Of a DNA stretch of 30,896 nt, positions 7,660 through 23,751 are shown piece by piece (the first letter of the stretch is position 1; every line of letters begins with the position of its first letter). The DNA lies in NCBI GenBank assembly GCA_049516815.1, contig JBEKST010000001.1, forward strand, positions 1 through 30,896. The letters are read 5' to 3'. The notes under the pieces were generated by a model that was not told the origin of the DNA, searched no databases, and saw nothing but the letters and a program-made list of their open reading frames with translations. Origin of the DNA: Bacteroidales bacterium. GTDB lineage: Bacteria > Bacteroidota > Bacteroidia > Bacteroidales > FEN-979. Both the position numbers and the translations under genes were made by a program.

Positions 7660-10600
7660 CAGCTGATATCTTCTGTCATGATGGATTTCTTTTCAACGGT
7701 AATCTCGGTATAATCAATTTTACTGGTTGACGGATTTCCCGACAAATAAGAATACATGACGGGGATGATATAAAGAGTGAGGAATGTAGAAAAGAACAGT
7801 CCCCCAACAACTGCGATACCTAATGATTGCCTGCTTTCGGCCGAAGCGCCTAGTTTTAATGCGATGGGCAGAATCCCAAGAATCATGGCCGATGAAGTCA
7901 TCAGGATCGGCCGGAAGCGTGAAATGGCTGCACGCTGGACCGCTTCAATTTTATCGAGTCCTGTCGCCTTACGTTGGTTTGCAAATTCCACGATTAGAAT
8001 GCCGTTTTTGGTTACAAGGCCTATCAGCATGATGATCCCTATTTCACTGAAGATATTCAGGGTCTGGTTAAAATACCAAAGAGAAAACAGCGCTCCGGCA
8101 AGGGCCAGGGGTACAGTAAACAGGATAATCAACGGGTCAACAAAGCTCTCAAACTGGGCAGCCAGGATTAAAAAAATCAGTACTATGGCTAAAAGAAAAA
8201 TATAGGCCAGACTGGATGAGCTTTCCCTGTAATCGCGCGATTGCCCGGCCAGTGCGGTGTTGAAGGTGGCTGGTAACAACTTTTTCGATACCCCGTCTAG
8301 CGCTTTGATCCCATCGCCCAGTGTTGCTCCCGGGGCAAGCCCGGCCGAGATTGTGGCGGAGATATAGCGGTTAAATGAAAAAATGGAGGCTGGGTTAATG
8401 GATTCCTCCATGTGTATCAGGTTGTCAATCAATATTAGTTCTCCCTTGTTATTGCGCACATACAGCGCCTTCAGTGCATCGGGACGGTCGCGATCTTGCC
8501 GCATCACCTGGCCAATGATCTCGTATTGCTTGCCATTCATGATAAAATATCCATACCGCTGGCCGCTCATGGCAAGTTGCATGGTTCGGGCAATTTCTTG
8601 TGTTGAAACATCCAGTAAGGCAGCCTTTTCACGGTCGATGGTTATCCGTAACTCAGGTTTGTTGATTTTAAAATTGGCATCAACAAACTGAAGGATCGGA
8701 ATTTTTCTGGCTTCTTCAAGAAATTCTGGCAACTCCTTGTTTAAGCCTATCAGATCTGGCGCCTGGAGAACATATTGAAGGGGTTGCCCCGAAAAACGAT
8801 CACCAATCGTTGGCGGTTCAAATGGAAAAGTGCGAATGCCCGTAATATTCTGCAAATCTTTCGACATTTTTCTAAAAATCTCATGCTGGCTCCGCGATCG
8901 CTTTTCCGGATCCAAAAGATAAACAATCTGTTGGGCCTTATTTGGATTTTCGATGGTTCCCATACTTGGTGAAATCCATGAAAAGGATACTGTAGCCTCA
9001 GGAAATGAATCCGCGATATAACTGTCGACCTGGGCCATGTAATTTGTCATAAATTCATAGGTAGATCCTTCAGGTGCAAGTGTTGGGATACGGATATTCG
9101 AACGGTCTTCAAGTGGCGCTAATTCAGAATGTAATGAGTGATATGTAAATCCAATAACAAATATTAACCCCACGAAGACCGGAAATACAAGCCATCTCCG
9201 GTTCATGAGACCTTTCAGGGAATACCGGTACCCTCTGTTCAGCGACAGAAAGAATGGTTCGGTTTTACTGATCAGCCAGTTTGTATTCAGATGTCTTTGC
9301 GTTTTCAGGATGCGTGAACACATCATGGGTGAAAGCGTCAGTGCCACAAAGGCAGAAATCAAAACAGATCCGGCAATAACAATGGCAAACTCTTTAAAAA
9401 GCCGTCCTATTAATCCTTGTAAAAACATAATTGGCAGGAATACGGCAGCAAGGGTAATGGTAGTTGAAATAACCGCGAAAAAGATCTCCTTCATCCCCTT
9501 TAAGGCAGCATCAGTGGGATGCAAACCCGCGTCGATTTTTGTATAAATATTTTCAAGCACCACGATGGCATCATCACAAACAAGACCGATAGCCAATACA
9601 ATGGCCAGCAGGGAAAGTACATTGATCGAAAGCCCCATTAATGCCATGATAATAAATGATCCAATAATGGAAACAGGAATAGCCGCCACTGGTATGATGG
9701 TCGAGCGCCAGTCGCGAAGAAAAATGAAAATGATCAGGACTACAAGAATAAGCGACAGAATGATGGTTTGCTGAACCTCTTTGACAGCCCCACGTTCAAA
9801 TTTGGTAAAGTCGTACCCTATTCTGACATCATAATCCGGCGGGATCTCCTTCCTGAGATTTTCCAACCGCTTGTAAAACTCATTGGCAATGGCCACATTG
9901 TTTGCGCCCGTTTGAGGGACAACCCCAATGATGATCACCGGCAAGAGCTCCATCAATACGGTGGAGCGGTCATTCTCGGGATAAAGTTCAGCAGTGCCGA
10001 TATCAGAAAGGCGGACAATGTTTCCACCCTCCTGCTTTATAATCACATCGTTAAATTGTTCCGGCGACTGCATCAATCCAAGAGTCCGGATCGTCAGTTC
10101 AGTCAGGTCACCCTCCACCCGGCCTGAAGGAAGTTCAATATTTTCGCGGTTGACTGCCCGTTCAACATCCACTGAGGTGATACCGTTGGCTGCCATTTTA
10201 TTGGGATCGAGCCAGAGCCGCATGGAGTATTTCTTTTCTCCGAAAATTTTAATGTCCCCAACCCCGGGAATTGTTTGAAGGCGCTCTTTAATCTTATTTT
10301 CAACCAGGTCGTTAACCTCCATGATGTTTCGTTTGTAACTCCGAACAATGATAAAAATGATCGCATTGGCATTGGCGCTCAGTTTCTCTACGATCGGTGG
10401 ATCCACATCCTTTGGCAATAATTTTATAGCCTTCGAAACACGGTCACGTACGTCGTTTGCGGCTGATTCCATCTCCTTTCCCAGGTTGAATTCAACTGTA
10501 ATCAGGCTTGATTGATCCGTTGAAACCGACGACAACGTCCTGATTCCCTCAATCCCATTGATAGCATCTTCCAATGGTTCCGTGATCTGGGCCTGGATAA

Positions 10601-10772
10601 TCTCAGGGTTTGCCCCCGAATAGGTCGTCGTTACCGTCACCACTGGCGGGTCCATCTCCGGATACTCCCTGATTCCAAGATAATAAAACCCTACGAACCC
10701 AAAGATGAGAATCAGGATGGTAAATACCATGGCAAGAACCGGCTTTTTTATACTCAGTTCGGATAAGCTCAT
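7659..10772 (-). CDS. RND efflux permease (AcrB/AcrD/AcrF family)
   Basis: 1037 aa. Proton-relay motifs GLVCDDAIVVLEN, GLVTKNGILIVEF and RFRPILMTS, with two large periplasmic loops. Confidence 0.96.
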   Translation of the reverse strand: MSLSELSIKKPVLAMVFTILILIFGFVGFYYLGIREYPEMDPPVVTVTTTYSGANPEIIQAQITEPLEDAINGIEGIRTLSSVSTDQSSLITVEFNLGKEMESAANDVRDRVSKAIKLLPKDVDPPIVEKLSANANAIIFIIVRSYKRNIMEVNDLVENKIKERLQTIPGVGDIKIFGEKKYSMRLWLDPNKMAANGITSVDVERAVNRENIELPSGRVEGDLTELTIRTLGLMQSPEQFNDVIIKQEGGNIVRLSDIGTAELYPENDRSTVLMELLPVIIIGVVPQTGANNVAIANEFYKRLENLRKEIPPDYDVRIGYDFTKFERGAVKEVQQTIILSLILVVLIIFIFLRDWRSTIIPVAAIPVSIIGSFIIMALMGLSINVLSLLAIVLAIGLVCDDAIVVLENIYTKIDAGLHPTDAALKGMKEIFFAVISTTITLAAVFLPIMFLQGLIGRLFKEFAIVIAGSVLISAFVALTLSPMMCSRILKTQRHLNTNWLISKTEPFFLSLNRGYRYSLKGLMNRRWLVFPVFVGLIFVIGFTYHSLHSELAPLEDRSNIRIPTLAPEGSTYEFMTNYMAQVDSYIADSFPEATVSFSWISPSMGTIENPNKAQQIVYLLDPEKRSRSQHEIFRKMSKDLQNITGIRTFPFEPPTIGDRFSGQPLQYVLQAPDLIGLNKELPEFLEEARKIPILQFVDANFKINKPELRITIDREKAALLDVSTQEIARTMQLAMSGQRYGYFIMNGKQYEIIGQVMRQDRDRPDALKALYVRNNKGELILIDNLIHMEESINPASIFSFNRYISATISAGLAPGATLGDGIKALDGVSKKLLPATFNTALAGQSRDYRESSSSLAYIFLLAIVLIFLILAAQFESFVDPLIILFTVPLALAGALFSLWYFNQTLNIFSEIGIIMLIGLVTKNGILIVEFANQRKATGLDKIEAVQRAAISRFRPILMTSSAMILGILPIALKLGASAESRQSLGIAVVGGLFFSTFLTLYIIPVMYSYLSGNPSTSKIDYTEITVEKKSIMTEDIS

Positions 10773-10773
10773 C

Positions 10774-11832
10774 TTAGTTTATTTTGGTTACTTTTAGTGG
10801 TGACTCCTTTTTAACCCGGAGCAAGTTGGTCAGGACAAGTGTATCTCCAACCTTTATTCCCTCAAGTATCTGGATATAATCACGACTTCTTACCCCGGTC
10901 TTAACCATCATGGGTTGGGCTAACCCTTCCCGTTTCACAAAAACACTGTACCCCTTGATGGATGGGATCAATGCAGAGGTTGGTATATACAGCCTTTTAC
11001 TTAATTGCCCCAAGGTAAGCGTAACTTTGACAGATGTGCCAGCTACTAATTTTTCATCGCCATTCGCGGCGACCGCCCTCACAAGAAGCGTCCGTGTCCT
11101 GACATCCACGGCAGGTTCGATGGCTTCGACCACTGCGGCCACATTATCGTTTAAATAATCGGTGCAGAAACTGATCGTTGATCCAACATGTATATCCCGG
11201 GCATACCGCTCCGGTATTGAAAAATCTATTTTAACCCTGCTGATATCTACCAAATTGGCCAAAACGAGCCCCGGATTCACCAGGGTGCCTTCGCTCACAT
11301 TCCTCAAACCGATTTTCCCCGCAAATGGAGCACGGATCTCCGTTTTTGCCAGGTCAACCTTCAGTATCTCAATTTCTGCCAAGAGGGTCTGATGCAGGTT
11401 TGATACCTCATCATAGCGTTCCTGGCTGATTCCTCCCTTTAATAGCAGAACTTTTTCCCTGGATTCATTCGCTTCGGCCAGTTTCACCTCAATAATTAAC
11501 TTGTTGATTTTTGCATTGATATCGGCATCATCCAGTTTAAACAGCAATTGATCTTTTGCAACATATGCGCCTTCCTTAAGAAATATCGAAGTAATTTTCC
11601 GGTTGATCTCGCTCACGATTTCAACCTGCTCATTGGCACTAATCGTTCCGACCGTTTCAAGTTGATAGTTAACTAGAGTATCTTTTGTGATAAAGCATTC
11701 GACAGGGACTATCGGATTAGTATTGGATAAGTTAACATACTCTTTTTTGCCAGAGATGACACATGTTCTTAAAAGAGCAAGAATGACCACTACTATTATA
11801 AGGCATCCCAGAATAAAGAGTGTTCGCTTCAT
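10774..11832 (-). CDS. RND periplasmic adaptor (membrane fusion protein)
   Basis: 352 aa. N-terminal anchor, lipoyl half-motifs (GAYVAKDQLLFKLD; IRAPFAGKIG), alpha-hairpin, IEPAVDVRTRT. Ends 1 nt before the RND ATG. Confidence 0.94.
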   Translation of the reverse strand: MKRTLFILGCLIIVVVILALLRTCVISGKKEYVNLSNTNPIVPVECFITKDTLVNYQLETVGTISANEQVEIVSEINRKITSIFLKEGAYVAKDQLLFKLDDADINAKINKLIIEVKLAEANESREKVLLLKGGISQERYDEVSNLHQTLLAEIEILKVDLAKTEIRAPFAGKIGLRNVSEGTLVNPGLVLANLVDISRVKIDFSIPERYARDIHVGSTISFCTDYLNDNVAAVVEAIEPAVDVRTRTLLVRAVAANGDEKLVAGTSVKVTLTLGQLSKRLYIPTSALIPSIKGYSVFVKREGLAQPMMVKTGVRSRDYIQILEGIKVGDTLVLTNLLRVKKESPLKVTKIN

Positions 11833-11843
11833 GTGTAAATACT

Positions 11844-14810
11844 TTAAAATTTTAGTGATACCATAAACTGGTCGTGCGGAAGTATCGGGCCATAGGCTCT
11901 GGAAAATCCAAAGGAGAGGGTTGATTTGAGCAAAGAGAATAAAACAAGTTCCAAATCAAGCTGAACCCCGGATGAAAAGAAATTCAGCTGAGGTTGGTCG
12001 TTGGCAATATTGGTAAAAAGACCCTGACCGAACAACGTAAACCGGGCATAGGTTGAATAAAAGCTCTTCATCCCGAAACGTTTGAAACGAATGGGTTTAA
12101 AATTAACCTCGGCCGAAATTTTCCCATAGTTTAGTGCTGAAATTTCATCGATCTCAACACCTGGAAAACTTGACATTTCCCGGTATTGCTGCGCCGAACG
12201 ATAATCAAGATAGTTATTCCCAAATCCTCCAAAGTAAAAATAGGAATTTGTCTTATTCGATTCTCCAAACGATTGCCCGATCGATGTTCTGAACCACAAT
12301 GAAGAGTTCCGTAATGGAAGTAAAAATCCAAGGTCAAAATTGTTAATCAGTTGCGGATAAAAGGTCTTCTTTGCGAAACTGGTATAGGCAAACACATTCC
12401 AGTCAAAGCCTTGTTCCGGTTCAATGGCGCCAAGTGATTTTCGTAAGTAACTCTTATGAAAATTGAGGGTCCCGACGTATAAATTACGGTAATCGGAGGC
12501 AATATTCTGGTAAAACGGTAAGGTCTCCAGATCGCCATAAGCAGTGAGTTTGATATAAAAATCGGTTTTTTCGGGTGAAAAACGGTTAATCAGTTTATAA
12601 TACTTTGCTGAAAAGGAGTAGCCAGCCCTGCTGAATTTGGTTGGGCCAAACAGGTCATAAAAATCAGCATAATTGTAATTTCCTGCGAAGGACCAGTTCC
12701 AGTAGTTGTATTCCGCTGAAAAATGAATAGTCTGTTTGAGCGGCAAGTTGGGTTGAGGTGAAAAAGAGAGTTTGAGCGTGAGCGAATTCAGACCCATCGG
12801 GTCCATGAAATTGAGCCGGTACCCGGCAGCAATATAATCTTTATATCCCTGGAGTATGGGATATACGCTGGCCAGTCTGAGTTCATGGATCGGACGATAA
12901 CGCTTCTCGGAAACCTTCAGCGAGTCAAGATTTATTTTCGATGGAGGGGGTAATGTCCAGCTTTCAATATCCAAATTCTTCTTATAAATCTGTTGGCCGA
13001 GGAATTTAATAGGAGACACATCGGCCAACGTATCAATTTTCATCATTCCGGCCACCATGCCTTTATGGGTGTATTCAAACATCAGCATTGAATCGGCCGA
13101 AACCGGTAAAGGCCTGAAAAAGCCGTTTTCGGCATTGGTAAGGATCTGTGCTTTATGTGTATCGATTGAGATGCGGAAAATATTTGAAACCCCTGTATAA
13201 TAAGAAGTTCCATAGAGATATTTTCCATCCGGTGAAAAAACGAAATTGGCAGCCGGGTTATCTTCAAATTCGTATAATTCCTGGTAATCTGTTTTTCCGG
13301 CAAGCAGGTCAGCAATGCGGAATAAAACCAGTCTCTGCCTCCCTCTTACATCCGAAAGCGTAGCAGAAAGTAAACTCCCATCTGATGAAATGGCGGGATC
13401 CGACAGATCCTTGCCAAATGGAAGGGTAAACATCGTTTGGTACTTCTTATATGGAGGTACGAACCGTACAAGGTTCGACCGCCCGCTCATGCTCTGAATA
13501 CCCCAAAGCGTATGGTTTTTGGGATCAAAAACCAGATTTCCGCAACGGCTGTATTTGATAAGATTCTGCGTTTTGCCTGTTTTCACATCGATTGATTGAA
13601 GCCCGCGCCAATCGTTATTATGTGTTGAAATGAAAATCGTTTTTGATGAATCGTCATAGGCCATACTGGTCACATAAAACAGGCCTGGACTGGGCACTGG
13701 GGCAATCCTTTTCATCTTACCCGTAACAATATCAATGCTTGCAATGTGAGCCAGTTTGCCAGGATAATTAATGGCAACCAATATGTTATGTGATGCCGGA
13801 TCATAATACTGGCGCGAAACAGATCCCAGGGGCTCCTTCGTAATATTCCGGTAATTCGTTAATGGATATTTGCTGATCTCCTTTAAATTCTTCTTTTGAA
13901 ATTCGTGCTCCCACTTGATCCATTGATCCCATTCATGCTGAATCGGAATTCCATATACATGTTTAAACTGGGAAGCATAAAAGCGTCTGCTTGTATCGGT
14001 TCTCGCATAAAAATTCTTCAGTTTCGGGATACCATATTTATATGCAAGGTAGCTTACGAACCGTGTACCGTAAAGATAGGAATTCACACCCACCTGGAAA
14101 TCGATCGTTGTACCTTCTGTTTCAAGTCCGATCACATTATAGAAAAATGCACTGTCGTGCACCATCGTGCGGAATACCATTTCATCGTATCCACCCATTA
14201 CACGACCAACACCACCCGACATCCAGGTTTCCATGAAAACTGCGATCCCTTCGTGATACCACCTGGGAGAGTACCAACGGGGTGTGGTAAAATAACTGTA
14301 AACCATTGAAAACGGATCTCGGTTATCAGCCATCACCTTGCCTCCGAAAATTGTTCTCAGAATTTTATCGGATTTCGATGCTTTGTCGCACATTACCTGG
14401 TGCGTGAGTTCATGGCTCATCAACCACTGCATCCGTTCATTGGAAGGGACAACCGAAAAGGTGTATTCAAAAGGCGAAATGCCAATGTTCAGAAAGTTCC
14501 AGGGGATTACCATGGTTCCACCATTTCCGATGTCGGAAAAATCGTTGAACAGGATGTTGGTTTCTCCGCTTGGCGTATAATCCCAGAATCGCTTATGGAA
14601 AGCCAGTGCATTCTCGAATGACCGCACGGTATGCGGAACGAGGTAGGAAGTGTTTTTATCCAGAAAAACCAGCCTTACATTTTTTGTTTCAAATTTCTGG
14701 ATGTTGATTTTTTTCTGAGTCTGAGCAGAAAGAAAAAAAGGAACAGACAGTAACACAAAGATCGAAACAACCAGAAAAAAAGGATGTGTGATACGGATAT
14801 ATCTTAACAT
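11844..14810 (-). CDS. Secreted fusion: gluzincin-type zinc metallopeptidase + TolB/WD40-like beta-propeller + C-terminal outer-membrane beta-barrel (Omp85-like, tentative)
   Basis: The likely ATG is 14810, because the ORF-track start at 14849 overlaps a -7 box. Signal peptide ends LSA-Q. HELTH at 14400-14414 plus PRWYHEGIA as the third-ligand Glu. PD40-like repeats (DPAISSDGSLL, FVFSPDGKYLY). Amphipathic strands end in terminal Phe (FMVSLKF). Confidence 0.78.
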   Translation of the reverse strand: MLRYIRITHPFFLVVSIFVLLSVPFFLSAQTQKKINIQKFETKNVRLVFLDKNTSYLVPHTVRSFENALAFHKRFWDYTPSGETNILFNDFSDIGNGGTMVIPWNFLNIGISPFEYTFSVVPSNERMQWLMSHELTHQVMCDKASKSDKILRTIFGGKVMADNRDPFSMVYSYFTTPRWYSPRWYHEGIAVFMETWMSGGVGRVMGGYDEMVFRTMVHDSAFFYNVIGLETEGTTIDFQVGVNSYLYGTRFVSYLAYKYGIPKLKNFYARTDTSRRFYASQFKHVYGIPIQHEWDQWIKWEHEFQKKNLKEISKYPLTNYRNITKEPLGSVSRQYYDPASHNILVAINYPGKLAHIASIDIVTGKMKRIAPVPSPGLFYVTSMAYDDSSKTIFISTHNNDWRGLQSIDVKTGKTQNLIKYSRCGNLVFDPKNHTLWGIQSMSGRSNLVRFVPPYKKYQTMFTLPFGKDLSDPAISSDGSLLSATLSDVRGRQRLVLFRIADLLAGKTDYQELYEFEDNPAANFVFSPDGKYLYGTSYYTGVSNIFRISIDTHKAQILTNAENGFFRPLPVSADSMLMFEYTHKGMVAGMMKIDTLADVSPIKFLGQQIYKKNLDIESWTLPPPSKINLDSLKVSEKRYRPIHELRLASVYPILQGYKDYIAAGYRLNFMDPMGLNSLTLKLSFSPQPNLPLKQTIHFSAEYNYWNWSFAGNYNYADFYDLFGPTKFSRAGYSFSAKYYKLINRFSPEKTDFYIKLTAYGDLETLPFYQNIASDYRNLYVGTLNFHKSYLRKSLGAIEPEQGFDWNVFAYTSFAKKTFYPQLINNFDLGFLLPLRNSSLWFRTSIGQSFGESNKTNSYFYFGGFGNNYLDYRSAQQYREMSSFPGVEIDEISALNYGKISAEVNFKPIRFKRFGMKSFYSTYARFTLFGQGLFTNIANDQPQLNFFSSGVQLDLELVLFSLLKSTLSFGFSRAYGPILPHDQFMVSLKF

Positions 14811-14836
14811 GGTAGCGAAAATCAGTATCGTCGTGC

Positions 14837-14844
14837 CAAATTTA
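14837..14844 (-). promoter_or_regulatory. Bacteroidota housekeeping -7 box TAAATTTG for the peptidase-barrel/RND unit
   Basis: Exact TAnnTTTG match 26 nt upstream of ATG 14810. No -33 box at canonical spacing. Confidence 0.55.
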
Positions 14845-15179
14845 AACAAAAATGAAACCTACACTACATTCGCAATAAAAAACACATCCACGGAGACATC
14901 ACAATAAATTCCTGCAATTATAATCATAAAGCCGTCAATTGACTCTGACTTCGGAAGTCCGTGCCTATTTGCCTATTATATGCCGCCAAAGGCTGATCAG
15001 ATCACACACTACCTTGACTATTGGCTTGACCTCAAGCAAATGGAAGGTTTTGTAAAGAGCAGGAAAAACAATGGATGGATGGAGTCCGGCCGGGATCAAT
15101 CATTCGCCGGCGGTGTTGGATCCGGAATATATTTCATTGGATCGATTCCAAAGGGTCAGGTGGAAATTTTTTTTCTCTT

Positions 15180-16445
15180 TTATTGTCCCTGTGGAATGAC
15201 ATTCAATCCCATACTACCAAGCTGACCCACCATATTTATAAAGTCTGAGCTGTAGACGACATTAAGTCCCTGCTGGTTGCTGAGAATCTGATTCAACTGA
15301 GCGCTCGATAACGCTATTCCCAAATTACTCTGATTTGAGCTATAAACGCTTTTCAAATCGATGTTCGATTGATAAAGGTTAAGTCCATGGGATGAAAAAA
15401 CGGCTACACCGGCAATGGCTCCCAGTGAAACGGAGCCTTGTAATATGGCTGTGATCTGGGAAGAGGACAAAACGTTTTGAAGATCTGTTTTATTTCCCAC
15501 CTGGAATTGCAGGTTGGCTTTATCGTATACCATTACACTACCTACGATGTTGCCAAGGTCCTGTTTTGATTTTACAGTCTGTCCCAGTTGCTGAGCCTGG
15601 ATAATTTTCCCAAGTTGGACATTGGAGCCAAATCCCATCTCCGTACTCCCTATATAATTTCCAAGGTTTCCCTGGCTCATAACGACATTTAAACTGTTCT
15701 GGCTCGAGAGGTTCAGTTGTTCTTTGCTGAGAACAATATTTAATGCCGATTGAGAAGAAAGTGCGTAGCCAATCAGTTGGGCGCATAAGGGTTTATCCTG
15801 GAGCAATCCGGAAAGTTGGACACCCTGGAGCAGCAACTGGTCGCGGATTGATTTCAGACTGATTAACTCGGTTTTTTTCGTTTTCAGTGTTTTGTCCGAC
15901 AGCATGAAATTGTCCATGCTCCTGAGTGCCAGGTTAAGAACGGAATCTTTTTCATTCAGGTTGTTTACGTAAATTCCGAAATCACGGAGGTTCTTTTCCA
16001 CATCGGCTGATTCATCCGAGTTATCCTTTAAATAGAAAGCTGTAAGCACCCGGATTGTGGTGGCCAGGGTTTTATTGTTATTCCTGATAAAATCGGAAAA
16101 ATCTTGCAAGGCCGATACTGATGCACACTTGTTGGGGTCAGTGCAAATTCCCTTCGATCTATATTTGTCGACACAGGAATCAATATTATTACTCAGATTC
16201 TGGGTAAAAACCGAAAAATAAATCAGCCCCTGGATCATATTTTTTAATTTACCTGTATCGGCAACCAATTCGCTCCGAAGCAAAATATCTTTTTCGGTCA
16301 TCTGCTGTTTATGGTATTTCTCAGCCTTACCAAAGGTTCCCGAAGTCAATCCTTTGAATAATGTAGGGTAAAATAATGAAATCCCTACGATCAGGATAGC
16401 AATAATCACCACAACGCTGATGATCACCTTGACTTGCTTTTTCAT
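15180..16445 (-). CDS. Hypothetical membrane-anchored protein with a helical domain and a C-terminal S/Q/N/G-rich repeat region
   Basis: 421 aa. KK plus a hydrophobic stretch at residues 7-26, 4 Cys in the helical domain, repeats at residues 230-421. Starts 20 nt after the anti-sigma stop. Confidence 0.85.
   Translation of the reverse strand: MKKQVKVIISVVVIIAILIVGISLFYPTLFKGLTSGTFGKAEKYHKQQMTEKDILLRSELVADTGKLKNMIQGLIYFSVFTQNLSNNIDSCVDKYRSKGICTDPNKCASVSALQDFSDFIRNNNKTLATTIRVLTAFYLKDNSDESADVEKNLRDFGIYVNNLNEKDSVLNLALRSMDNFMLSDKTLKTKKTELISLKSIRDQLLLQGVQLSGLLQDKPLCAQLIGYALSSQSALNIVLSKEQLNLSSQNSLNVVMSQGNLGNYIGSTEMGFGSNVQLGKIIQAQQLGQTVKSKQDLGNIVGSVMVYDKANLQFQVGNKTDLQNVLSSSQITAILQGSVSLGAIAGVAVFSSHGLNLYQSNIDLKSVYSSNQSNLGIALSSAQLNQILSNQQGLNVVYSSDFINMVGQLGSMGLNVIPQGQ
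15183..15758 (-). repeat. Protein-level degenerate repeat array, about 20 units of mostly 8-11 aa, consensus approx. [S/Q/N]xx-L-[G/N]-x-hydrophobic-hydrophobic-[S/G]
   Basis: Anchor residues L235, L244, L252, L261, M270, L278, L287, L297, L312, L322, I331, L341, L355, L364, L375, L384, L394, I403, L409, L414. The DNA repeats are not identical. Confidence 0.7.
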
Positions 16446-16465: not shown

Positions 16466-17248
16466 CTATTCTTTGTTGACTTGTACCGAATTATGATATA
16501 CCGATAAATCGTTCTGATAAATTTTAAAGTCGATGTTATGTGACAAACTGTTTTTATTGTAAAGCTGTATAATAAATTTATTGTCGCCTATATTATTGAT
16601 CTGAATTAAGTTGGCAGCAACCACGGCAGAGGATTGATCATTCACGCTGACATTCTGCACGTTTAATACTTTAAAGTCATTATAATCGAATTCGATGATT
16701 GATTTAACCAGATTAAGCGAAGAAATATCCACTCTTATTTCAACTATTTTCGTGGAATAGCGTACGTTGCACACGGCCTTTGTCAGGGGATCTTCATATT
16801 GTAAAACATCGGCCACTTTCATGTTATCAAATGAACGGGAATCGTAGAAAGTTCCCTTCATATCTTTGGTTGGGGCATTGGCTTTTTTAAAATCAACCTT
16901 TAAGAAACTGAAAATTATAATTCCCACGAAAACACCCAATACGAAGCTAAAACCTAATCTGACAGCAGGCCGTGACCAAAAGCTTCGCACTATTAAAAAT
17001 CCCGCTGTTTTCGGTGGCTGCTTATAGGTTTCCATATTTATCCTTTTTAATATTTCCTGTTTTAAATCGATATCAACAAAGGCTTTTTGCTCTTTATTCA
17101 TCTGAATTTTTATCAATTCCCATTCTTTGGATAATTGAGCAGCTTCCGGATGGTCAGACAGGTAGTCCTCAATTTCACACTGATCTGCCTTAGTTAACTC
17201 GCCATCCAGGTTCCTGTAAATCTTTTCGATGATTTCTTTTTCAGTCAT
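16466..17248 (-). CDS. Single-pass membrane anti-sigma factor
   Basis: Likely start at ATG 17248, overlapping the sigma stop (ATGACTGA). N-terminal anti-sigma-like domain (YRNLDGELTKADQCEIEDYL), TM LGFSFVLGVFVGIIIFSFL, beta-rich periplasmic domain. Confidence 0.78.
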   Translation of the reverse strand: MTEKEIIEKIYRNLDGELTKADQCEIEDYLSDHPEAAQLSKEWELIKIQMNKEQKAFVDIDLKQEILKRINMETYKQPPKTAGFLIVRSFWSRPAVRLGFSFVLGVFVGIIIFSFLKVDFKKANAPTKDMKGTFYDSRSFDNMKVADVLQYEDPLTKAVCNVRYSTKIVEIRVDISSLNLVKSIIEFDYNDFKVLNVQNVSVNDQSSAVVAANLIQINNIGDNKFIIQLYNKNSLSHNIDFKIYQNDLSVYHNSVQVNKE

Positions 17249-17786
17249 TTTCAAAAAATCCATTTGCAATCAATCCTTTTCGCAATTGTTCCCTGGCAAT
17301 AAATAATCTGGAACGAACTTTTTTAACCGGAATACGCGTGGCTTCAGTAATCTCTTCATAGGATAACCCGCAATAATATTTCAACAAAACCAATACCCTG
17401 TAATCTGCATTCATTTTGCGCAGTTCACGATGAAGTAAATTGTTTTTTGCTTCTGCAGCCATGGTTTCTGACTCTCCGAAATCAATCGGGTCAATCTTCC
17501 CAAGGCTTTCTGTCATCGGGTTTTTCCTGTTCCAGTTGATCGCTTCATTCACTGCGATCCGGTAAATCCAACTGAAAAACCGAAATCTGAAATCGAATCC
17601 ACCCATTTTTTCGAACGCTTTTACAAATACATCCTGAGTGAGATCTTTGGCCGTTTCAAAATTGCTAACCATTCGTAACATCATGTTTAAGATCGTTTTC
17701 TGGTAACGATCAATCAGCACCTCGAAGGAGGACATGTTGCCATGAATCACTTCATAAACAAGCTCATTATCGTCCTTCATTATCAT
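17241..17786 (-). CDS. ECF (sigma-70 group 4) RNA polymerase sigma factor
   Basis: 181 aa. Region 2 (AKDLTQDVFVKAF; FFSWIYRIAVNEAIN) and region 4 (GLSYEEITEATRIPVKKVRSRLFIAREQL). Confidence 0.93.
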   Translation of the reverse strand: MIMKDDNELVYEVIHGNMSSFEVLIDRYQKTILNMMLRMVSNFETAKDLTQDVFVKAFEKMGGFDFRFRFFSWIYRIAVNEAINWNRKNPMTESLGKIDPIDFGESETMAAEAKNNLLHRELRKMNADYRVLVLLKYYCGLSYEEITEATRIPVKKVRSRLFIAREQLRKGLIANGFFEND

Positions 17787-17789
17787 AAA

Positions 17790-17813
17790 TACAATAAAAA
17801 TGGAAAAAGTTGG
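17790..17813 (-). promoter_or_regulatory. Possible ECF-type autoregulatory promoter CCAAC-N15-TGTA
   Basis: An AAC -35 core and a GT-containing -10 element lie just upstream of the sigma ATG, which implies a nearly leaderless transcript. This is pattern resemblance only. Confidence 0.25.
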
Positions 17814-17846
17814 TGAAAGGTACTAAAAAATTATTAAAAAGATCCG

Positions 17847-18854
17847 CTAAATTTTTTCAAGCAGATAAAGCTTCCAGAGATCTTTCCGGTTCATCCGCAA
17901 CACTGGGGTAATGGCAAGGTATCCACCGCGACCAATGCTTTTCTTCAGGGCTTTCAACTCCCTGAGTTTAACCGGTAAATCAGGATCTGATGGAACTGCC
18001 ATGTCATTTTCCTTCAGCATCATCATGCTTTTGGCCTTCATCGAAAGTTCAAGGTACAAACTGATGAAACAATACATATCCAGCACCACCTCCCCCGGGA
18101 AATGTGCCTTCAGGGAAACCAGAAAACGACCTGTTTTTGTTTGAGAAAATTGCCCTTTTCTGATCATCCTAAGCATACCGACTTCAGAATCAAACTCTAA
18201 CTCGAGCCATTGGCGGATCGATTTCTCGTTTGAATTAAAGATTAAAATAAAGGACAGAGGTACCACCAGGATGATTATCACAGTTGAGACCAGCGGGGAG
18301 ACAAGGAACTGGTTAAAAATTCCATGGATTACTATGGCTGCCAGTACGCCCGATCCCGTTGCCACCCCAAGGTTTGATTGCCTGTTCAGTGCGCTCATGC
18401 ATAGAATGCCAAATATAGCTGTCGTTCCGCCGTGCATAATTGCTGTTCCAAACCCACGGGTGATCCAGATCATAAGGTTATTTTCATCCCCGGCATATTG
18501 TGATAGATAAAATAAATTTTCTGCAAAGGAAAAAGCCGCCCCGATCGAAAAACCATAGATTGCTCCATCAATCATGAATCCTATTTTATTTCTTTTTATC
18601 AGGAGCCATAACATGCCACATTTTAGCAATTCTTCAACGAAGGGTGCGATAAAACCGGAATAGGAATCAAAACTGACTCCCAGATGATTCATCAGATAGG
18701 TGTTAAGAAAAAAACTGATCCCCGAACTCACCAAACCCCATGTAAGGCAAATCATGAGCAGAGTTTTACTTACCAGTTTAAGGCTGTCGAGGTATAAAAG
18801 CATGACTAGGAAAAGAAATACGGGAATCAGGCTGACAAATACCTTTATAACCAT
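17847..18854 (-). CDS. prsW: PrsW-family glutamic-type intramembrane protease with an extra C-terminal soluble domain
   Basis: Multi-TM protein with motifs APFVEELLK (EExxK), FSFAEN (FxxxE), AIMHG and IHGIFN (HxxxN). Start is ATG 18854 or GTG 18863. Confidence 0.88.
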   Translation of the reverse strand: MVIKVFVSLIPVFLFLVMLLYLDSLKLVSKTLLMICLTWGLVSSGISFFLNTYLMNHLGVSFDSYSGFIAPFVEELLKCGMLWLLIKRNKIGFMIDGAIYGFSIGAAFSFAENLFYLSQYAGDENNLMIWITRGFGTAIMHGGTTAIFGILCMSALNRQSNLGVATGSGVLAAIVIHGIFNQFLVSPLVSTVIIILVVPLSFILIFNSNEKSIRQWLELEFDSEVGMLRMIRKGQFSQTKTGRFLVSLKAHFPGEVVLDMYCFISLYLELSMKAKSMMMLKENDMAVPSDPDLPVKLRELKALKKSIGRGGYLAITPVLRMNRKDLWKLYLLEKI

Positions 18855-18979
18855 GGATTTCACTTGTTTTATTAGTTACACCGGAAACTGGGTTTATATT
18901 GTCGGGTAATTTTATCTGTTTTGGTCATCACCAGCAGGAGATTATCATCCTATATCCCGAAATCCGAAATCCCTCAAAC

Positions 18980-19630
18980 TCACTGCACATCAATCACCCT
19001 GAACGACGTGCTCACCGGCACTCCTCTGAAATTTTCAATGAAACGTTCAGATACCCGCGACAGGCATCCTGTATCCATTGGCAATCCCATATTTATCGTA
19101 TCATTGATCACTTTCACATAGAACTTCTCACTGAGCACGATCCTGTTTTCAATGCTCTTGGTCATAAGCCGGGCCGTAAGATCAACATCGCTGCCATAAT
19201 AATCATCGGCACCTTCGAAAAAGGTGATGTTGTATACCTCCGTACAATAATGGATTGCTACCTTGCAGCTAAGATAAAGGTCCTGGTCGGGATGGTTTTT
19301 AATAAGAAACAGCCCTGCATAGATATCTTCGAGCAAGGCAAAACAAGTATTGTTCGAAGATTTCTTTTGCAAAACTTCATCAGGAATAAAGAGCATCATC
19401 TCATCCCCGATACCCTTGACAATATGTTGCTGAAAATGATTGGTATATAAAAGACTGTTGAAAGTATTGTTCAGCTTCCTACCCCAATTTTTCAGACCAC
19501 CCTGGTATTTTATATCGGTCGAGCGGTTGATATCCATAAAGAAACATATCCCCGGGCAACGCGGAATTTGTTCCAATGCCCGCACCATTTCCTCAGAGTT
19601 CGGATCAGTGTAATGAATGTAATGAGCCAT
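18980..19630 (-). CDS. Stand-alone class III nucleotidyl (adenylate/guanylate-type) cyclase domain protein
   Basis: 216 aa. FMDINRST (first metal Asp), VKGIGDEMM (second metal Asp, specificity Lys), KVAIH, DYYGSDVDLTARL. ATG overlaps the STAS stop (TGATG). Confidence 0.78.
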   Translation of the reverse strand: MAHYIHYTDPNSEEMVRALEQIPRCPGICFFMDINRSTDIKYQGGLKNWGRKLNNTFNSLLYTNHFQQHIVKGIGDEMMLFIPDEVLQKKSSNNTCFALLEDIYAGLFLIKNHPDQDLYLSCKVAIHYCTEVYNITFFEGADDYYGSDVDLTARLMTKSIENRIVLSEKFYVKVINDTINMGLPMDTGCLSRVSERFIENFRGVPVSTSFRVIDVQ

Positions 19631-19962
19631 CAGAATACCTTTAAGGCATCCTCTCTGGATAAATGAATCTCAAAAATGCTCGTAAATCCCGATATTTCGA
19701 AGATTTCATGAATATTCTCCTGTAAACAGCACAATACAAACTTCCCTTTCATCTGGGTAATCTTTTTCAAGGCCATCAGAAGAATACGCAAACCACTGCT
19801 GCTGATATAGTCCATTTTAGAACAATCAACCAGAATTTTATCATGATGGCTGTCGATCAACTCCATGAGTTTTCTTTCCAACATGCTGTAACTTGTCGTA
19901 TCAAGCCGGCCTGTTATGCCAATGATCACGCACTGATCTGTTTCCTGTTCTTTGATTTCCAT
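19630..19962 (-). CDS. STAS-domain anti-sigma factor antagonist (RsbV/SpoIIAA-like)
   Basis: 110 aa. GRLDTTS, VDCSKMDYISSSGLRILL with the phospho-acceptor Ser, FEISGF. Confidence 0.94.
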   Translation of the reverse strand: MEIKEQETDQCVIIGITGRLDTTSYSMLERKLMELIDSHHDKILVDCSKMDYISSSGLRILLMALKKITQMKGKFVLCCLQENIHEIFEISGFTSIFEIHLSREDALKVF

Positions 19963-19984
19963 ATGATTAATCTTTGGTTTTAGG

Positions 19985-20401
19985 TTAAAAATTCTTCATT
20001 AAAATTACGATATTTTTATCAACTGTCCGTTTATAATCCACGCTGTTCATCAATTCCCTGACGAAATGGATACCCAGGCCGCCAATCTGGCGATCCTCAA
20101 TTGATTTATCTAAAGTACTGTTCATGTTTTTCTCCAGCAGGTTAAAAGGTTTGCCATCATCCTCAAGGCATATCTTTAGGTGATGCTCATCAATCAGCAC
20201 GAAATCAAGGATGATATTGTGCTCCATCTTATCGTCATAGGCGTAGAAAACCACATTGGTAAACAACTCCTCCAACACGAGGTTGATCTCCATCACGATC
20301 TCTGTGGGAATGTTCCATTTTACAGACAATTCTTCCACATTGATTGCAAGTTTCTCAAGTTCTTTAATCTGGTTCTTAAGAATTAATTGAAAAGTTTGCA
20401 T
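19985..20401 (-). CDS. RsbW/SpoIIAB-like anti-sigma factor, Ser kinase (GHKL ATP-binding)
   Basis: 138 aa. N-box LEELFTNVVFYAY, G1 LEDDGKPFN, G2 IGGLGIHFV. Confidence 0.92.
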   Translation of the reverse strand: MQTFQLILKNQIKELEKLAINVEELSVKWNIPTEIVMEINLVLEELFTNVVFYAYDDKMEHNIILDFVLIDEHHLKICLEDDGKPFNLLEKNMNSTLDKSIEDRQIGGLGIHFVRELMNSVDYKRTVDKNIVILMKNF

Positions 20402-20463
20402 GGGTTTGTCTGTAGTTGATGGACAATGAGTGCCTCAATTGACCAGTATTTTATTTTTCTTGT

Positions 20464-20471
20464 CAAATGTA
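20464..20471 (-). promoter_or_regulatory. -7 box TACATTTG upstream of the RsbW-STAS-cyclase operon
   Basis: Exact TAnnTTTG match about 60 nt upstream of ATG 20401. Confidence 0.55.
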
Positions 20472-20590
20472 CTGAAAAACGATTAATTTTTTTAATTTCA
20501 TCCCTGCTTCATAATCAAAATAACTTTCGTACTTTGGGTCTCATGAAACTTTAACAACGAATAAATATCACAATCATTAACATATAGCCC

Positions 20591-20902
20591 ATGGTAACTT
20601 TCAATGTTAGTCCTGACGAAAAAGAATTTACAGCAACTTTTATCGGGCGACTCGACACCCTCGCTGTTCAGAAACTGGATGAAATAATCAAGATCAACCT
20701 TCCGGTAAAAAAGGGAACTTCATCTATGAAGATCATCTTTGACCTGAAGGATGTCGACTATATTTCATCTTCATTCATTCGGGTTTGTGTAAACGTTGCG
20801 AAACAAGCCGGACCTGGACAGTTTTCAGTTGTTCATTGTCAGCCCTTTATCATGAAAACATTTAAACTTTCGGGGCTGGATGAGATCCTGAATGTTTCGT
20901 AG
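20591..20902 (+). CDS. Second STAS-domain anti-sigma factor antagonist
   Basis: 103 aa. GRLDTLA, FDLKDVDYISSSFIRV, FKLSGLD. Divergent from the RsbW gene. Confidence 0.87.
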   Translation: MVTFNVSPDEKEFTATFIGRLDTLAVQKLDEIIKINLPVKKGTSSMKIIFDLKDVDYISSSFIRVCVNVAKQAGPGQFSVVHCQPFIMKTFKLSGLDEILNVS

Positions 20903-20975
20903 ATCGGGTTTGTGACTTTTTTCGGGTCTTTGTCTCGTCCTGGCCCGGCAGTGAGAATTCCGAAACCAGAGCCAA

Positions 20976-22022
20976 TCATTGCTGATGGTCGAAAAACGGT
21001 GTCAAAAATGACACAACATTTCTGGCAAGAAATTCTTTATTGTACCCTCCCTCCATCACGATCAGGGTGGGAATTTTCAATTCGGTGATCAGATATTCTG
21101 CAAGGCGAGGGTATATTTTTGCAGATAAGCTGAAATTACCGAGCTGGTCTTTCTCGAATGTATCAACGCCAAAGGATATTACAAGATAGCTTGCCCTGAA
21201 ATGTCGTAATGCGGAGACCGCATCACAGAATACCTTAAAATAAAATTTGTCGGTAATTCCTGGAGGTAGCGGGAAATTGATGTTTTTAGAAGTGTTTTCC
21301 GATACAAATCCTGTCAGATAGGGATAAGAATAATCGGGATCTCCGTGTATAGAGATGAACAGTATATTTTCAAGGTGCTGAACAATATCCTGGGTGCCGT
21401 TGCCATGATGGAAATCAAGATCGAGAATACCAACTTTCACACTTCCATTACCATTCAGTTCTCCCGTATCCTGCAGGTATTTAGTTGCCAGTGCTGCATT
21501 GTTAACAAAGCAATACCCGCCGGCATAATCAAATCCTGCATGATGTCCGGGAGGACGGCACAGGGAAAACACCCGGGATTGGCCCAGCAGGAGGTGTTTT
21601 GCTCCGGTAAGCGCTGTAAATCCTGAAAATCTGACGGCTTCCCAGGTGCCCTTGACAATCATGGTAGAGCTGTCTGTCATATAAAACCCGGCTTTCCCTA
21701 CCGGGCTTTTCATGGGTGGATGTTCCCGTAGCTTTCCGATTGCAAAAAATTCCGGCATAATACCTTCAGCCCATAATCCTGCAGTAATCCATTCTTCATA
21801 AGCTGTTTTAAGGTATTCAAGGTATTCTGATGAATGAACCTTATAAAAATGACCAAGATCGAATTGTTCTGCTCTTAAAAGTTCCACCTCCTTAACATCC
21901 AGAAGAAACTCATAGATAAGTTCAGCCCTTTCGGGTGACTCACCATATGCCACAACCTGGTTTGAGATGAATTCCTTGGGAGGATTATGCAGGATATGAT
22001 GCGGGGAATAGACGACAATCAT
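20976..22022 (-). CDS. Histone-deacetylase-fold enzyme, acetylpolyamine amidohydrolase (APAH)-like subfamily
   Basis: 348 aa. CRPPGHHAG, GGYCFVNNAA, LDLDFHHGNGTQ, SFGVDTF, MEGGY. The N-terminus (YSPHHILHNPPKE...ESPERA) and mid insert follow the pattern of Mycoplana ramosa APAH as recalled. Confidence 0.9.
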   Translation of the reverse strand: MIVVYSPHHILHNPPKEFISNQVVAYGESPERAELIYEFLLDVKEVELLRAEQFDLGHFYKVHSSEYLEYLKTAYEEWITAGLWAEGIMPEFFAIGKLREHPPMKSPVGKAGFYMTDSSTMIVKGTWEAVRFSGFTALTGAKHLLLGQSRVFSLCRPPGHHAGFDYAGGYCFVNNAALATKYLQDTGELNGNGSVKVGILDLDFHHGNGTQDIVQHLENILFISIHGDPDYSYPYLTGFVSENTSKNINFPLPPGITDKFYFKVFCDAVSALRHFRASYLVISFGVDTFEKDQLGNFSLSAKIYPRLAEYLITELKIPTLIVMEGGYNKEFLARNVVSFLTPFFDHQQ

Positions 22023-22036
22023 GGTTTCTGCTGAAT

Positions 22037-23533: not shown

Positions 23534-23603
23534 AAGTAGAGGGTTATTATGAGTTTGCAATTTTACATATGACAATCTGTGGAAATCACATTAAAAACCT
23601 GAA

Positions 23604-23627: not shown

Positions 23628-23751
23628 TATTTATTTGACCGAATTATTTCGTGGCATATACAATCTATTCGTTTCAATAAAATAATGTATTTGGGAATCA
23701 AATTCAGGAATTTATCCAGGTTACCCATCGGTTCAGGACAATGTTAATTAT

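What the first reader, a model, noticed from the sequence alone, without database searches (positions are those of the whole stretch)
15180..16445. Membrane-anchored protein with an amyloid-like or multi-core repeat tail
Hand count for residues 230-421 (192 aa): 94 are S/Q/N/G (about 49%), only 14 are D/E/K, there is no Arg, Trp or Cys, and the single Pro is 4 residues from the end. About 20 L[G/N]-anchored units recur mostly every 8-11 aa (e.g. QNSLNVVMS, QGNLGNYIG, KQDLGNIVG, QSNLGIALS, SAQLNQILS, QQGLNVVYS). This composition resembles functional amyloids or beta-solenoids, but the repeat does not match the curli consensus. An alternative is a precursor releasing many short related peptides. 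The segment GTFGKAEKYHKQQMTEKDILL just after the TM helix looks like a conserved processing or recognition motif (inference). The gene is the first downstream of the sigma/anti-sigma pair, so it is the likely ECF output.
Basis: partly seen in the sequence, partly recalled or inferred. Interest (0 to 1): 0.82.

Follow-up and report, generated by a model that had tools for sequence, protein, structure and literature searches.

The report
Repeat-tailed membrane partner of anti-sigma factor
This gene encodes an inner-membrane-anchored periplasmic protein that is a divergent Bacteroidales member of an unnamed family found beside, or fused to, the anti-sigma factor of a conserved stress-signalling gene cassette; nothing found here supports it being an amyloid or a peptide precursor.

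Summary
The tail has a true but degenerate 9-10-residue periodicity, seen across 166 homologues. Only 14 L[G/N] sites occur, not about 20.

There is no Pfam, NCBIfam or PDB match. About 360 clusters of homologues exist, all annotated hypothetical.

The protein has four parts:
- a signal-anchor helix;
- a juxtamembrane motif (YP..GTF/I..K.xKY..QMT..D);
- a conserved helical bundle of about 180 aa;
- a fast-evolving S/Q/N/G/L tail.

The anchor plus motif recurs in several phyla, where it leads into near-perfect tandem nonapeptides with the same register: cap, x, x, hydrophobic, x, x, hydrophobic, hydrophobic, x. These proteins lie in one cassette: ECF sigma, anti-sigma, this protein, a roughly 1000-aa outer-membrane peptidase/propeller/barrel protein, and PrsW. 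In at least ten loci the protein is fused to the anti-sigma N-domain.

An ECF-type promoter (CAACTTT-N14-GTA) abuts the sigma start codon. In some relatives it also precedes the repeat gene.

Best reading: this is the periplasmic sensing or shielding arm of a PrsW-type anti-sigma switch, itself induced by the sigma factor. The amyloid and multi-core-precursor readings are not supported, but the tail fold remains unresolved. This scan has noted the same cassette on other genomes. I found no paper describing it.

The parts
15180..16445 (-). Whole ORF 'X', 421 aa. Single-pass inner-membrane protein with a periplasmic body.
   Evidence: ORF and translation. 205 or more homologues and 358 clusters at 50% identity, all hypothetical. 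No Pfam, NCBIfam or PDB sequence hit. Single copy in its own genome.
16368..16427 (-). Signal-anchor transmembrane helix (about residues 7-26), preceded by the MKKQVK cytoplasmic stub.
   Evidence: AF2 helix 2-24. The same segment is an internal, sole TM helix in anti-sigma::X fusions, so it is an anchor and not a cleaved signal peptide, and the topology is N-in/C-out. A relative fuses the N-domain to a Sulfatase domain.
16272..16367 (-). Juxtamembrane motif, residues 27-58 (P27, G36, T37, K40, Y44, D53 and R57 invariant within the family). Candidate docking or cleavage element for a cassette protease.
   Evidence: Invariant columns. Modelled as disordered (pLDDT 34-44) despite being the most conserved part. 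Profile positions 3-58 match proteins of other families in the phylum. Alignment A4. The motif finds 37 loci in several phyla. Stand-alone anti-sigma factors carry an invariant G-T-hydrophobic about 15 residues after their own TM helix.
15759..16271 (-). Conserved helical-bundle domain (about residues 59-229). Specific to the Bacteroidota 'X' subfamily and absent from nonapeptide-only cousins.
   Evidence: AF2 pLDDT 79-93 with long helices 51-238. 57-65% identity to relatives, against 26-36% for the tail. Fold searches return only generic helical bundles with Z below 10.
15183..15758 (-). S/Q/N/G/L-rich tail (residues 230-421) made of degenerate 9-10-residue units. It is the fastest-evolving part of the cassette.
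   Evidence: Composition. Repeat statistics. Family-wide composition is about 40% SQNG and about 10% charged. Tail-only AF2 has pLDDT 51.5 and pTM 0.25. In the full-length model the tail scores 43-84 as a mixed alpha/beta domain.
15372..15539 (-). Conserved core inside the tail (about residues 303-358). Two beta-hairpins in both AF2 models; Y307 invariant, F314 nearly so.
16466..17269 (-). Class I-type single-pass anti-sigma factor with a periplasmic domain of about 140 aa.
   Evidence: Weak NCBIfam anti-sigma hits. Its N-terminal 126 residues are 62% identical to the N-terminus of the fusion protein P0065. Alignment A8.
17241..17786 (-). ECF sigma factor.
   Evidence: Pfam Sigma70_r2 and r4_2. 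NCBIfam sigma70-ECF scores 85 bits against a cut-off of 42.9.
17787..17814 (-). ECF-type promoter CCAACTTT-N13-TGTATTT, ending at the sigma ATG.
   Evidence: Conserved in 9 aligned loci from several phyla. It is the only full match in the window. It keeps the same 3-nt distance to the sigma ATG in about 25 loci.
17847..18863 (-). PrsW-family intramembrane protease with a C-terminal extension of about 120 aa.
   Evidence: Pfam PF13367, E 9e-22, covering residues 33-203 of 338. Homologues at E 1e-54 to 1e-92 lie in most of the related cassettes that extend that far.
11844..14849 (-). Outer-membrane protein of about 1000 aa: HExxH peptidase-like region, PD40 propeller, C-terminal barrel. It is the invariable downstream neighbour of X.
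   Evidence: PD40 hit. Atlas neighbour clusters carry PD40, Peptidase_MA_2 and Omp85. Homologues at E 1e-230 to 0 follow the X-like gene in nearly all loci.

Best explanation
X is the Bacteroidales form of an unnamed family of inner-membrane-anchored, periplasm-facing, repeat-tailed proteins. These proteins belong to the anti-sigma side of a conserved envelope-signalling cassette: ECF sigma, anti-sigma, X, a roughly 1000-aa outer-membrane peptidase/propeller/barrel protein, and a PrsW-type membrane protease.

Shown:
- N-in/C-out single-pass topology.
- A cross-phylum anchor-plus-motif module.
- A 9-10-residue repeat tail that evolves two to three times faster than every other cassette protein.
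- Repeated independent fusion of the whole module to the sigma-binding N-domain of the anti-sigma factor.
- Co-transcription with sigma from a conserved ECF-type promoter.

Inferred:
- The juxtamembrane G-T-hydrophobic...K.xKY motif is the docking or site-1 cleavage element for PrsW. The stand-alone anti-sigma factor carries a similar motif.
- The helical bundle and repeat tail act as the periplasmic sensor or shield. Their state, for example ligand binding or trimming by the outer-membrane peptidase, decides whether proteolysis proceeds to the genome's single site-2 protease and releases sigma.
- Because sigma induces X, X also provides feedback.
- The repeat units most likely form short capped amphipathic helices rather than cross-beta strands.
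For: - Cassette conservation: Bacteroidales; other Bacteroidota; 37 loci labelled Ignavibacteria, Acidobacteriota, Latescibacterota, Cloacimonadota, Gammaproteobacteria and others.
- Fusions to the anti-sigma N-domain: P0065 (12 contigs, no separate anti-sigma gene), P0135, L013, L014 and L018, and L026, L027, L028, L030 and L046.
- Shared N-terminal module.
- Shared 9-mer register.
- Tail divergence: 26-36% identity against 57-81% for PrsW, sigma, the bundle and the outer-membrane protein.
- G-T-hydrophobic after the anti-sigma TM helix.
- Promoter.
- PrsW.
- One Peptidase_M50 site-2 protease elsewhere in the genome.
- AF2 secondary structure: 8 of 14 L[G/N] sites are in helices, and the elements are reproduced in the tail-only model.
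Against: - No experiment or co-folding links the motif to PrsW.
- In this window X has only a 6-residue cytoplasmic stub and cannot bind sigma itself, so its role beside a complete anti-sigma factor is inferred from fusions in relatives.
- The tail here is poor in helix formers (A, E, R, K) and rich in S, N, G, V and I. The tail-only AF2 model is low confidence (pLDDT 51.5), so the helical reading of the units is not secure for this subfamily.
- One genome holds two tandem X paralogues with no cassette genes within 8 kb, so the family can exist outside the cassette.
- Having its own sigma-dependent promoter in some loci fits a pure output role equally well.
Confidence: 0.55

Rival explanations
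1. X is a pure stress-response output. It would be a sigma-induced periplasmic effector, for example a holdase-like binder of unfolded outer-membrane proteins or lipids. It would use grooves formed by short amphipathic helices and work with the downstream outer-membrane peptidase/propeller/barrel protein, without any part in controlling the sigma factor.
For: - X lies in the sigma operon. In six relatives the repeat gene has its own copy of the sigma-type promoter.
- It is always followed by the outer-membrane protein.
- One cousin segment passes the Pfam STI1-HOP_DP cut-off (33.5 bits against 29.1). That family consists of 9-residue helical motifs that bind hydrophobic clients (my knowledge).
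- Orphan paralogues exist outside the cassette.
Against: - At least ten loci fuse the module to the sigma-binding domain of the anti-sigma factor and have no other anti-sigma gene. This is hard to explain for a mere effector.
- X itself gives no STI1 hit.
- The most conserved element is the membrane-proximal motif, not the tail.
Confidence: 0.25
2. The tail would be a functional-amyloid or beta-solenoid subunit, cut from its anchor at the conserved motif and assembled in the periplasm or exported through the neighbouring barrel protein.
For: - The tail is 49% S/Q/N/G with very low charge and imperfect repeats, and this composition is conserved across the family.
- A peptidase-plus-barrel protein lies next door.
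- The tail-only model is low confidence, so a templated fold is not excluded.
Against: - No Curlin repeat hit and no csgB/E/F/G-like genes.
- The unit pattern is i, i+3, i+4, not alternating, and there is no spectral peak at 160-180 degrees.
- Cousins carry the same unit in Ala/Arg/Glu-rich, helix-favouring form.
- AF2 gives helices plus two hairpins packed on the bundle, with no solenoid.
- Fusion to anti-sigma factors points to signalling.
Confidence: 0.07
3. X would be a multi-core precursor, cut by the neighbouring metallopeptidase into many related short peptides.
For: - There are tandem short units, near-identical in cousins and often bounded by K or R.
- A conserved HExxH protein is adjacent.
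- Tandem paralogues have conserved heads and variable tails.
Against: - No modifying enzyme, C39/ABC exporter or immunity gene is conserved in the cassette.
- The units in X are degenerate and interrupted by a conserved non-repeat core.
- Fusion to the anti-sigma N-domain and a 180-aa conserved bundle are not expected of a leader peptide.
Confidence: 0.03

Closest known systems
Bacillus subtilis sigma-W / RsiW / PrsW / RasP regulated intramembrane proteolysis
   Same: It has an ECF sigma, a single-pass anti-sigma factor and a PrsW-family protease (PF13367), with a site-2 protease encoded elsewhere. The best NCBIfam sigma hits include SigW.
   Different: The host is a diderm. The protease is encoded inside the cassette and carries an extra C-terminal region of about 120 aa. 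Two further conserved components have no B. subtilis counterpart: the repeat-tailed protein X and the roughly 1000-aa outer-membrane peptidase/propeller/barrel protein. No cleavage has been shown.
Unnamed nonapeptide-repeat partners of anti-sigma factors in the same cassette
   Same: These proteins share the N-terminal anchor and motif, the 9-residue unit register, the cassette and the fusions to anti-sigma N-domains.
   Different: X has a conserved helical bundle of about 180 aa inserted between the motif and the repeats. Its repeats are degenerate, uncharged and S/Q/N/G-rich, and they enclose a conserved beta-hairpin core. Here PrsW lies upstream of sigma and an RND efflux operon follows.
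Escherichia coli rpoE-rseA-rseB (sigma-E envelope stress)
   Same: X occupies the gene-order position after sigma and anti-sigma, as RseB does. RseB is a periplasmic modulator of anti-sigma proteolysis (my knowledge).
   Different: There is no sequence or fold similarity. X is membrane-anchored, and the site-1 protease here is PrsW-type rather than DegS.
Curli CsgA and other functional amyloids
   Same: They share the S/Q/N/G-rich, low-charge, imperfect-repeat composition.
   Different: X has no Curlin_rpt match, no curli secretion genes, a signal anchor instead of a signal peptide, a helical-type unit pattern and no solenoid model.
STI1/HOP DP-domain 9-residue helical motifs
   Same: Cousin proteins begin their tails with DP/NP-x-hydrophobic-Q-x-hydrophobic-hydrophobic-x units. 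One of them passes the PF17830 cut-off.
   Different: It is a single short match in a low-complexity context, and X itself gives no hit. Treat this as a lead for the helical nature of the units only.

Membership tests
Nonapeptide-repeat anti-sigma partner of the PrsW cassette (unnamed) | N-terminal basic stub, TM helix, (Y)P(P), then G-T-hydrophobic...K.xKY..Q.T..D motif | tested here: met
   Alignment A4. Profile positions 3-58 hit cousins at E 1e-7 to 1e-11.
Nonapeptide-repeat anti-sigma partner of the PrsW cassette (unnamed) | Extracytoplasmic tail of tandem 9-residue units (cap-x-x-hydrophobic-x-x-hydrophobic-hydrophobic-x) | tested here: met
   The form is degenerate. Autocorrelation peaks at lag 9-10 over 166 tails. 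The register matches the cousins. The units are interrupted by a conserved core.
Nonapeptide-repeat anti-sigma partner of the PrsW cassette (unnamed) | Encoded between the ECF sigma/anti-sigma pair and the roughly 1000-aa outer-membrane protein, with PrsW in the cassette | tested here: met
   Window gene order. Relatives.
Nonapeptide-repeat anti-sigma partner of the PrsW cassette (unnamed) | Relatives exist in which the module is fused to an anti-sigma N-domain | tested here: met
   P0065 and P0135 lie within the X subfamily. Eight cousin loci show the same.
Class I anti-sigma factor | Cytoplasmic anti-sigma domain that binds the sigma factor | tested here: not met
   X has only 6 residues before its TM helix. 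The neighbouring gene at 16466-17269 supplies that domain.
Curli-type functional amyloid (CsgA/CsgB) | Curlin repeat (Pfam Curlin_rpt) match | tested here: not met
   No such hit at E up to 0.1.
Curli-type functional amyloid (CsgA/CsgB) | Cleavable signal peptide and dedicated csgE/F/G secretion genes nearby | tested here: not met
   The N-terminal helix is an internal TM helix in fused relatives. Window neighbours are sigma/anti-sigma, PrsW, the outer-membrane protein and an RND pump.
Curli-type functional amyloid (CsgA/CsgB) | Cross-beta or beta-solenoid structure; fibre formation | tested here: inconclusive
   AF2 gives mixed alpha/beta with no solenoid, but the tail-only model is low confidence. 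Fibre formation cannot be tested with these tools.
Multi-core RiPP-like precursor | Conserved modifying enzyme, protease-exporter and repeated cores flanked by recognition sites | tested here: not met
   No such genes are conserved in the cassette. The units are degenerate.
SigW/RsiW/PrsW-type regulated proteolysis system (for the cassette) | PrsW-family protease, ECF sigma, single-pass anti-sigma factor and a site-2 protease in the genome | tested here: met
SigW/RsiW/PrsW-type regulated proteolysis system (for the cassette) | PrsW-dependent site-1 cleavage of the anti-sigma factor (or of X) | not testable with these tools
   This needs protein-level experiments.

The most novel reading that the evidence does not exclude
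The fast-evolving, uncharged Q/N/S-rich repeat tail of the Bacteroidales subfamily could be a self-associating switch, either amyloid-like or condensate-like. Its assembly state in the periplasm, or its capture and trimming by the outer-membrane peptidase/propeller/barrel protein, would gate PrsW cleavage at the conserved juxtamembrane motif. A diderm ECF sigma factor would then be controlled by a trans-envelope proteolytic relay of a kind not yet described.
Probability: 0.1. Interest if true: 0.85.

Novelty: new variant of a known kind. Interest (0 to 1): 0.55.

Why it matters
ECF sigma/anti-sigma switches are the main envelope-stress sensors of bacteria, yet what most anti-sigma factors sense is unknown. 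This protein ties an abundant group of uncultured Bacteroidales to a five-gene cassette shared by several phyla. The cassette adds two undescribed conserved parts to a PrsW-type proteolytic switch: a hypervariable repeat-tailed membrane protein and a large outer-membrane peptidase/propeller/barrel protein.

The contrast between an almost invariant juxtamembrane motif and the fastest-evolving tail in the cassette gives a concrete, testable model: a conserved protease handle joined to a variable sensor. In this window the cassette sits directly upstream of an RND efflux operon, which suggests a link to tolerance of toxic compounds.

The work also shows that an amyloid-like composition alone is a poor guide. 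The same repeat register appears in clearly helix-favouring sequences in cousin proteins.

Tried and rejected
- Pfam, NCBIfam and PDB sequence searches of X gave nothing.
- The ESM Atlas feature search gave no usable hit.
- Foldseek against PDB had a best E of 0.33 (ClyA-type helical toxins, TM below 0.2). I rejected this as generic long-helix similarity.
- AFDB clusters returned only three uncharacterised distant relatives.
- The Atlas shape search gave TM of 0.26 or less.
- VIA-align wide gave Z of 9.8 or less, all generic four-helix bundles and below the level that is meaningful for helical proteins.
- The tail-only AF2 model with 124 sequences was too poor (pLDDT 51.5) to justify a fold search.
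- A word-indexed protein search with the cousin motif found one protein only.
- No second promoter copy was found in the 369-nt gap before the outer-membrane protein gene.
- No RNA sequencing run was listed for the locus.
- Literature searches combining PrsW, ECF and Bacteroidetes, nonapeptide repeat and anti-sigma, and the ECF re-classification paper (PMC7826278), gave no description of this cassette.
- The Pfam hits of cousin tails (Plasmodium_HRP, DUF826, FapA_N and others) were dismissed as low-complexity artefacts.
Full report
**1. What is there.**
The ORF at 15180-16445 on the minus strand encodes 421 aa.
- 94 of 192 residues are S/Q/N/G.
- 14 are D/E/K.
- There is no Arg, Trp or Cys.
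- The one Pro is at position 418.

The figure of about 20 units is too high. The tail has 14 L[G/N] sites with spacings from 5 to 44, and 7 of 13 spacings fall within 8-11. The repeat is nevertheless real:
- L[GN]x[IVL]h[SG] occurs 6 times against 0.14 expected from shuffles.
- The best off-diagonal self-alignment exceeds all 200 shuffles.
- Over the tails of 166 homologues, hydrophobic autocorrelation peaks at lags 9 and 10, with harmonics at 18 and 27. The N-terminal domain shows nothing comparable.

**2. The family.**
X has no Pfam, NCBIfam or PDB-sequence match. It does have more than 200 homologues in the word-indexed search and 358 clusters at 50% identity. All are hypothetical, and those that carry organism names are mostly Bacteroidales or Bacteroidota MAGs.

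Residues 1-230 are strongly conserved, with 30 invariant columns. The tail is alignable but variable; only Q232, Y307 and F314 are at least 90% conserved among 124 tails. The tail's composition is a family trait: about 40% SQNG, about 10% charged and about 43% hydrophobic.

Against three Bacteroidales relatives, the tail is 26-36% identical. PrsW, sigma, the helical bundle and the outer-membrane protein are 57-81% identical.

**3. Structure.**
With a 34-sequence alignment, AF2 gives pTM 0.75 and mean pLDDT 73:
- a TM helix at residues 2-24;
- a low-confidence segment at 24-48, which is paradoxically the most conserved sequence;
- a confident helical bundle at 51-238 (pLDDT 79-93);
- a mixed alpha/beta tail (pLDDT 43-84) with two beta-hairpins over the conserved core and a C-terminal helix that packs back on the bundle.

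Eight of the 14 L[G/N] sites lie in helices, one in a strand and five in coil. The tail alone, with 124 sequences, reproduces the same secondary-structure elements but is low confidence (pLDDT 51.5, pTM 0.25). The tail fold is therefore unresolved. No model shows a solenoid. Fold searches returned only generic helical bundles.

**4. Context in Bacteroidales.**
Relatives keep the order PrsW, ECF sigma, anti-sigma, X, a roughly 980-aa protein, and often an sCache protein and an RND pump. One locus has four tandem X paralogues with near-identical heads and divergent tails.

**5. Fusions.**
P0065 is one of eight proteins of 539-544 aa (seven's 90% clustering, six of which collapse into P0065 at 50%). 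It is seen on 12 contigs and carries the anti-sigma N-domain directly on X. Residues 1-126 are 62% identical to window anti-sigma residues 3-129. Its locus has no separate anti-sigma gene.

P0135 is an independent fusion with a different linker and a single TM helix, that of X. Another relative, P0208, joins the X N-domain to a Sulfatase domain.

These fusions fix the topology as N-in/C-out. They show that the N-terminal helix is an anchor. They place X in the anti-sigma apparatus.

**6. A wider superfamily.**
A profile scan of 401 genomes of the phylum found the full X family in few of them. It also found proteins that match only profile positions 3-58, which is the anchor plus the motif. These proteins continue into near-perfect tandem repeats such as ALASAEVRD, DARFAELMK and ADLRAMLAN. 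They lie next to anti-sigma genes or are fused to anti-sigma N-domains.

Using their motif, 37 further loci were fetched. Their records are labelled Bacteroidota, Ignavibacteria, Acidobacteriota, Latescibacterota, Cloacimonadota, Gammaproteobacteria and others. Searching the window's proteins against their ORFs shows one cassette almost everywhere: sigma, an optional separate anti-sigma gene, the X-like gene, a homologue of the 1001-aa protein (E 1e-230 to 0) and PrsW (E about 1e-80).

Most tails have period 9 or 18; a few have 12, 10 or 6. Two divergent X-family members with the helical bundle, in another Bacteroidota family, sit in the same canonical cassette. A third genome has two orphan paralogues.

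**7. Same unit.**
Anchored on the periodic Leu, the X-family unit reads S at position -4, S/Q/N at -3, L at 0, S/G/N at +1, V/I at +3 and L/I at +4. The cousin unit anchored on Phe reads D/N/S at -3 (87%), F at 0, L/A/V at +3 (91%) and M/L/A/V at +4 (88%).

Both therefore follow cap, x, x, hydrophobic, x, x, hydrophobic, hydrophobic, x. This is the pattern of short capped amphipathic helices, not of alternating beta-strands. The power spectrum shows only harmonics of period 9 and no peak at 160-180 degrees. One cousin segment passes the Pfam STI1-HOP_DP cut-off, which I treat only as a lead.

**8. The motif.**
G36, T37 and Y44 are conserved in all 15 sequences of A4, with one exception each for T37 and P27. 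Stand-alone anti-sigma factors of the cassette have an invariant Gly, usually in a G-T-hydrophobic triplet, about 15 residues after their own TM helix.

The motif is retained in fused proteins that lack the anti-sigma periplasmic domain. Its partner should therefore be a component present in all versions. PrsW is membrane-embedded and highly conserved, so it is the obvious candidate. This step is inference.

**9. Regulation.**
A conserved CCAACTTT-N13-TGTAnTT element ends 3 nt before the sigma ATG in nine aligned loci and in about 25 loci overall. In the window it is unique, at 17787-17812 on the minus strand.

In six loci a second copy lies 48-72 nt upstream of the X-like gene, and in L001 a copy precedes the fourth paralogue. 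The fixed spacing to the ATG suggests a leaderless mRNA; this is inference. The genome has one Peptidase_M50 site-2 protease elsewhere.

**10. Verdict.**
The amyloid/solenoid and peptide-precursor readings are not supported, though the amyloid reading cannot be excluded by computation.

The best-supported reading is a sigma-induced, membrane-anchored periplasmic arm of a PrsW-type anti-sigma switch. It would combine a conserved protease-handle motif with a fast-evolving repeat sensor or shield.

I found no published description. Earlier notes of this scan describe the same cassette on other genomes. I reached the cassette, the fusions and the nonapeptide cousins independently, before reading those notes, and afterwards I tested their promoter claim.

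What this window adds is a Bacteroidota subfamily with an inserted helical bundle and degenerate, uncharged repeats. In this Bacteroidales locus PrsW also lies upstream of sigma and an RND efflux operon lies downstream.

Noticed in passing
L001:8001-13208: There are four tandem paralogues of X (443, 414, 411 and 389 aa). Their first 220 or so residues are near-identical and their tails are strongly divergent. One tail carries a Gly/Asn-rich insertion. A copy of the sigma-type promoter motif lies about 146 nt upstream of the fourth paralogue.
   Followed up: partly
window 17787-17814 (-), and about 25 related loci: The ECF-type promoter CCAACTTT-N13-TGTAnTT keeps an exact 3-nt distance to the sigma ATG across phyla. 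This suggests a leaderless, autoregulated sigma mRNA.
   Followed up: partly
window 16466-17269 (-), alignment A8: Stand-alone anti-sigma factors of the cassette share an invariant Gly, usually in a G-T-hydrophobic triplet, about 15 residues after their TM helix. This resembles the G-T-F/I of the X motif, so both proteins may be recognised by the same protease.
   Followed up: partly
window 11844-14849 (-): This roughly 1000-aa protein has an HELTH motif, PD40 blades and a C-terminal barrel ending in Phe. It is extremely conserved (phmmer E 1e-230 to 0) beside X-like genes in several phyla. Atlas neighbour clusters carry Peptidase_MA_2 and Omp85. The Atlas record starts at residue 14, so the true start is probably 14810, which leaves a 369-nt gap after X.
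   Followed up: partly
window 17847-18863 (-): The PrsW homologue has about 120 extra C-terminal residues beyond the Pfam domain (residues 33-203 of 338). In this lineage the gene lies upstream of sigma and outside the sigma promoter. In other phyla it is the last gene of the cassette.
   Followed up: no
P0208 (550 aa, metagenomic): The X N-terminal anchor, motif and bundle (residues 1-203) are fused to a Sulfatase/LtaS-like domain (PF00884, E 8e-28).
   Followed up: partly
L056 (G277:C2:1449000-1468000) 8241-10616: Two tandem X-family paralogues have no sigma, anti-sigma, outer-membrane protein or PrsW gene within 8 kb. These are orphan copies outside the cassette.
   Followed up: no
window 6355-11832 (-): A complete RND efflux operon (membrane-fusion protein, AcrB-type pump, outer-membrane factor) follows the cassette on the same strand. 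It is also present in some Bacteroidales relatives (L001, L002) but not in others (L005, L006).
   Followed up: partly
window 18980-26327: Upstream lies a dense set of partner-switching genes: HATPase_c_2 (RsbW-like) proteins, STAS domains, a cyclase-like protein, a GNAT fusion, a deacetylase and a STAS-TCAD9 kinase-like protein. RsbW/STAS pairs also appear near the cassette in L006.
   Followed up: no
L014, L041, L044-L046: Some cousin tails use other repeat periods: 8 (GEGNTIQK), 10/5, 6 and 12. The 9-residue unit is therefore prevalent but not obligatory.
   Followed up: no
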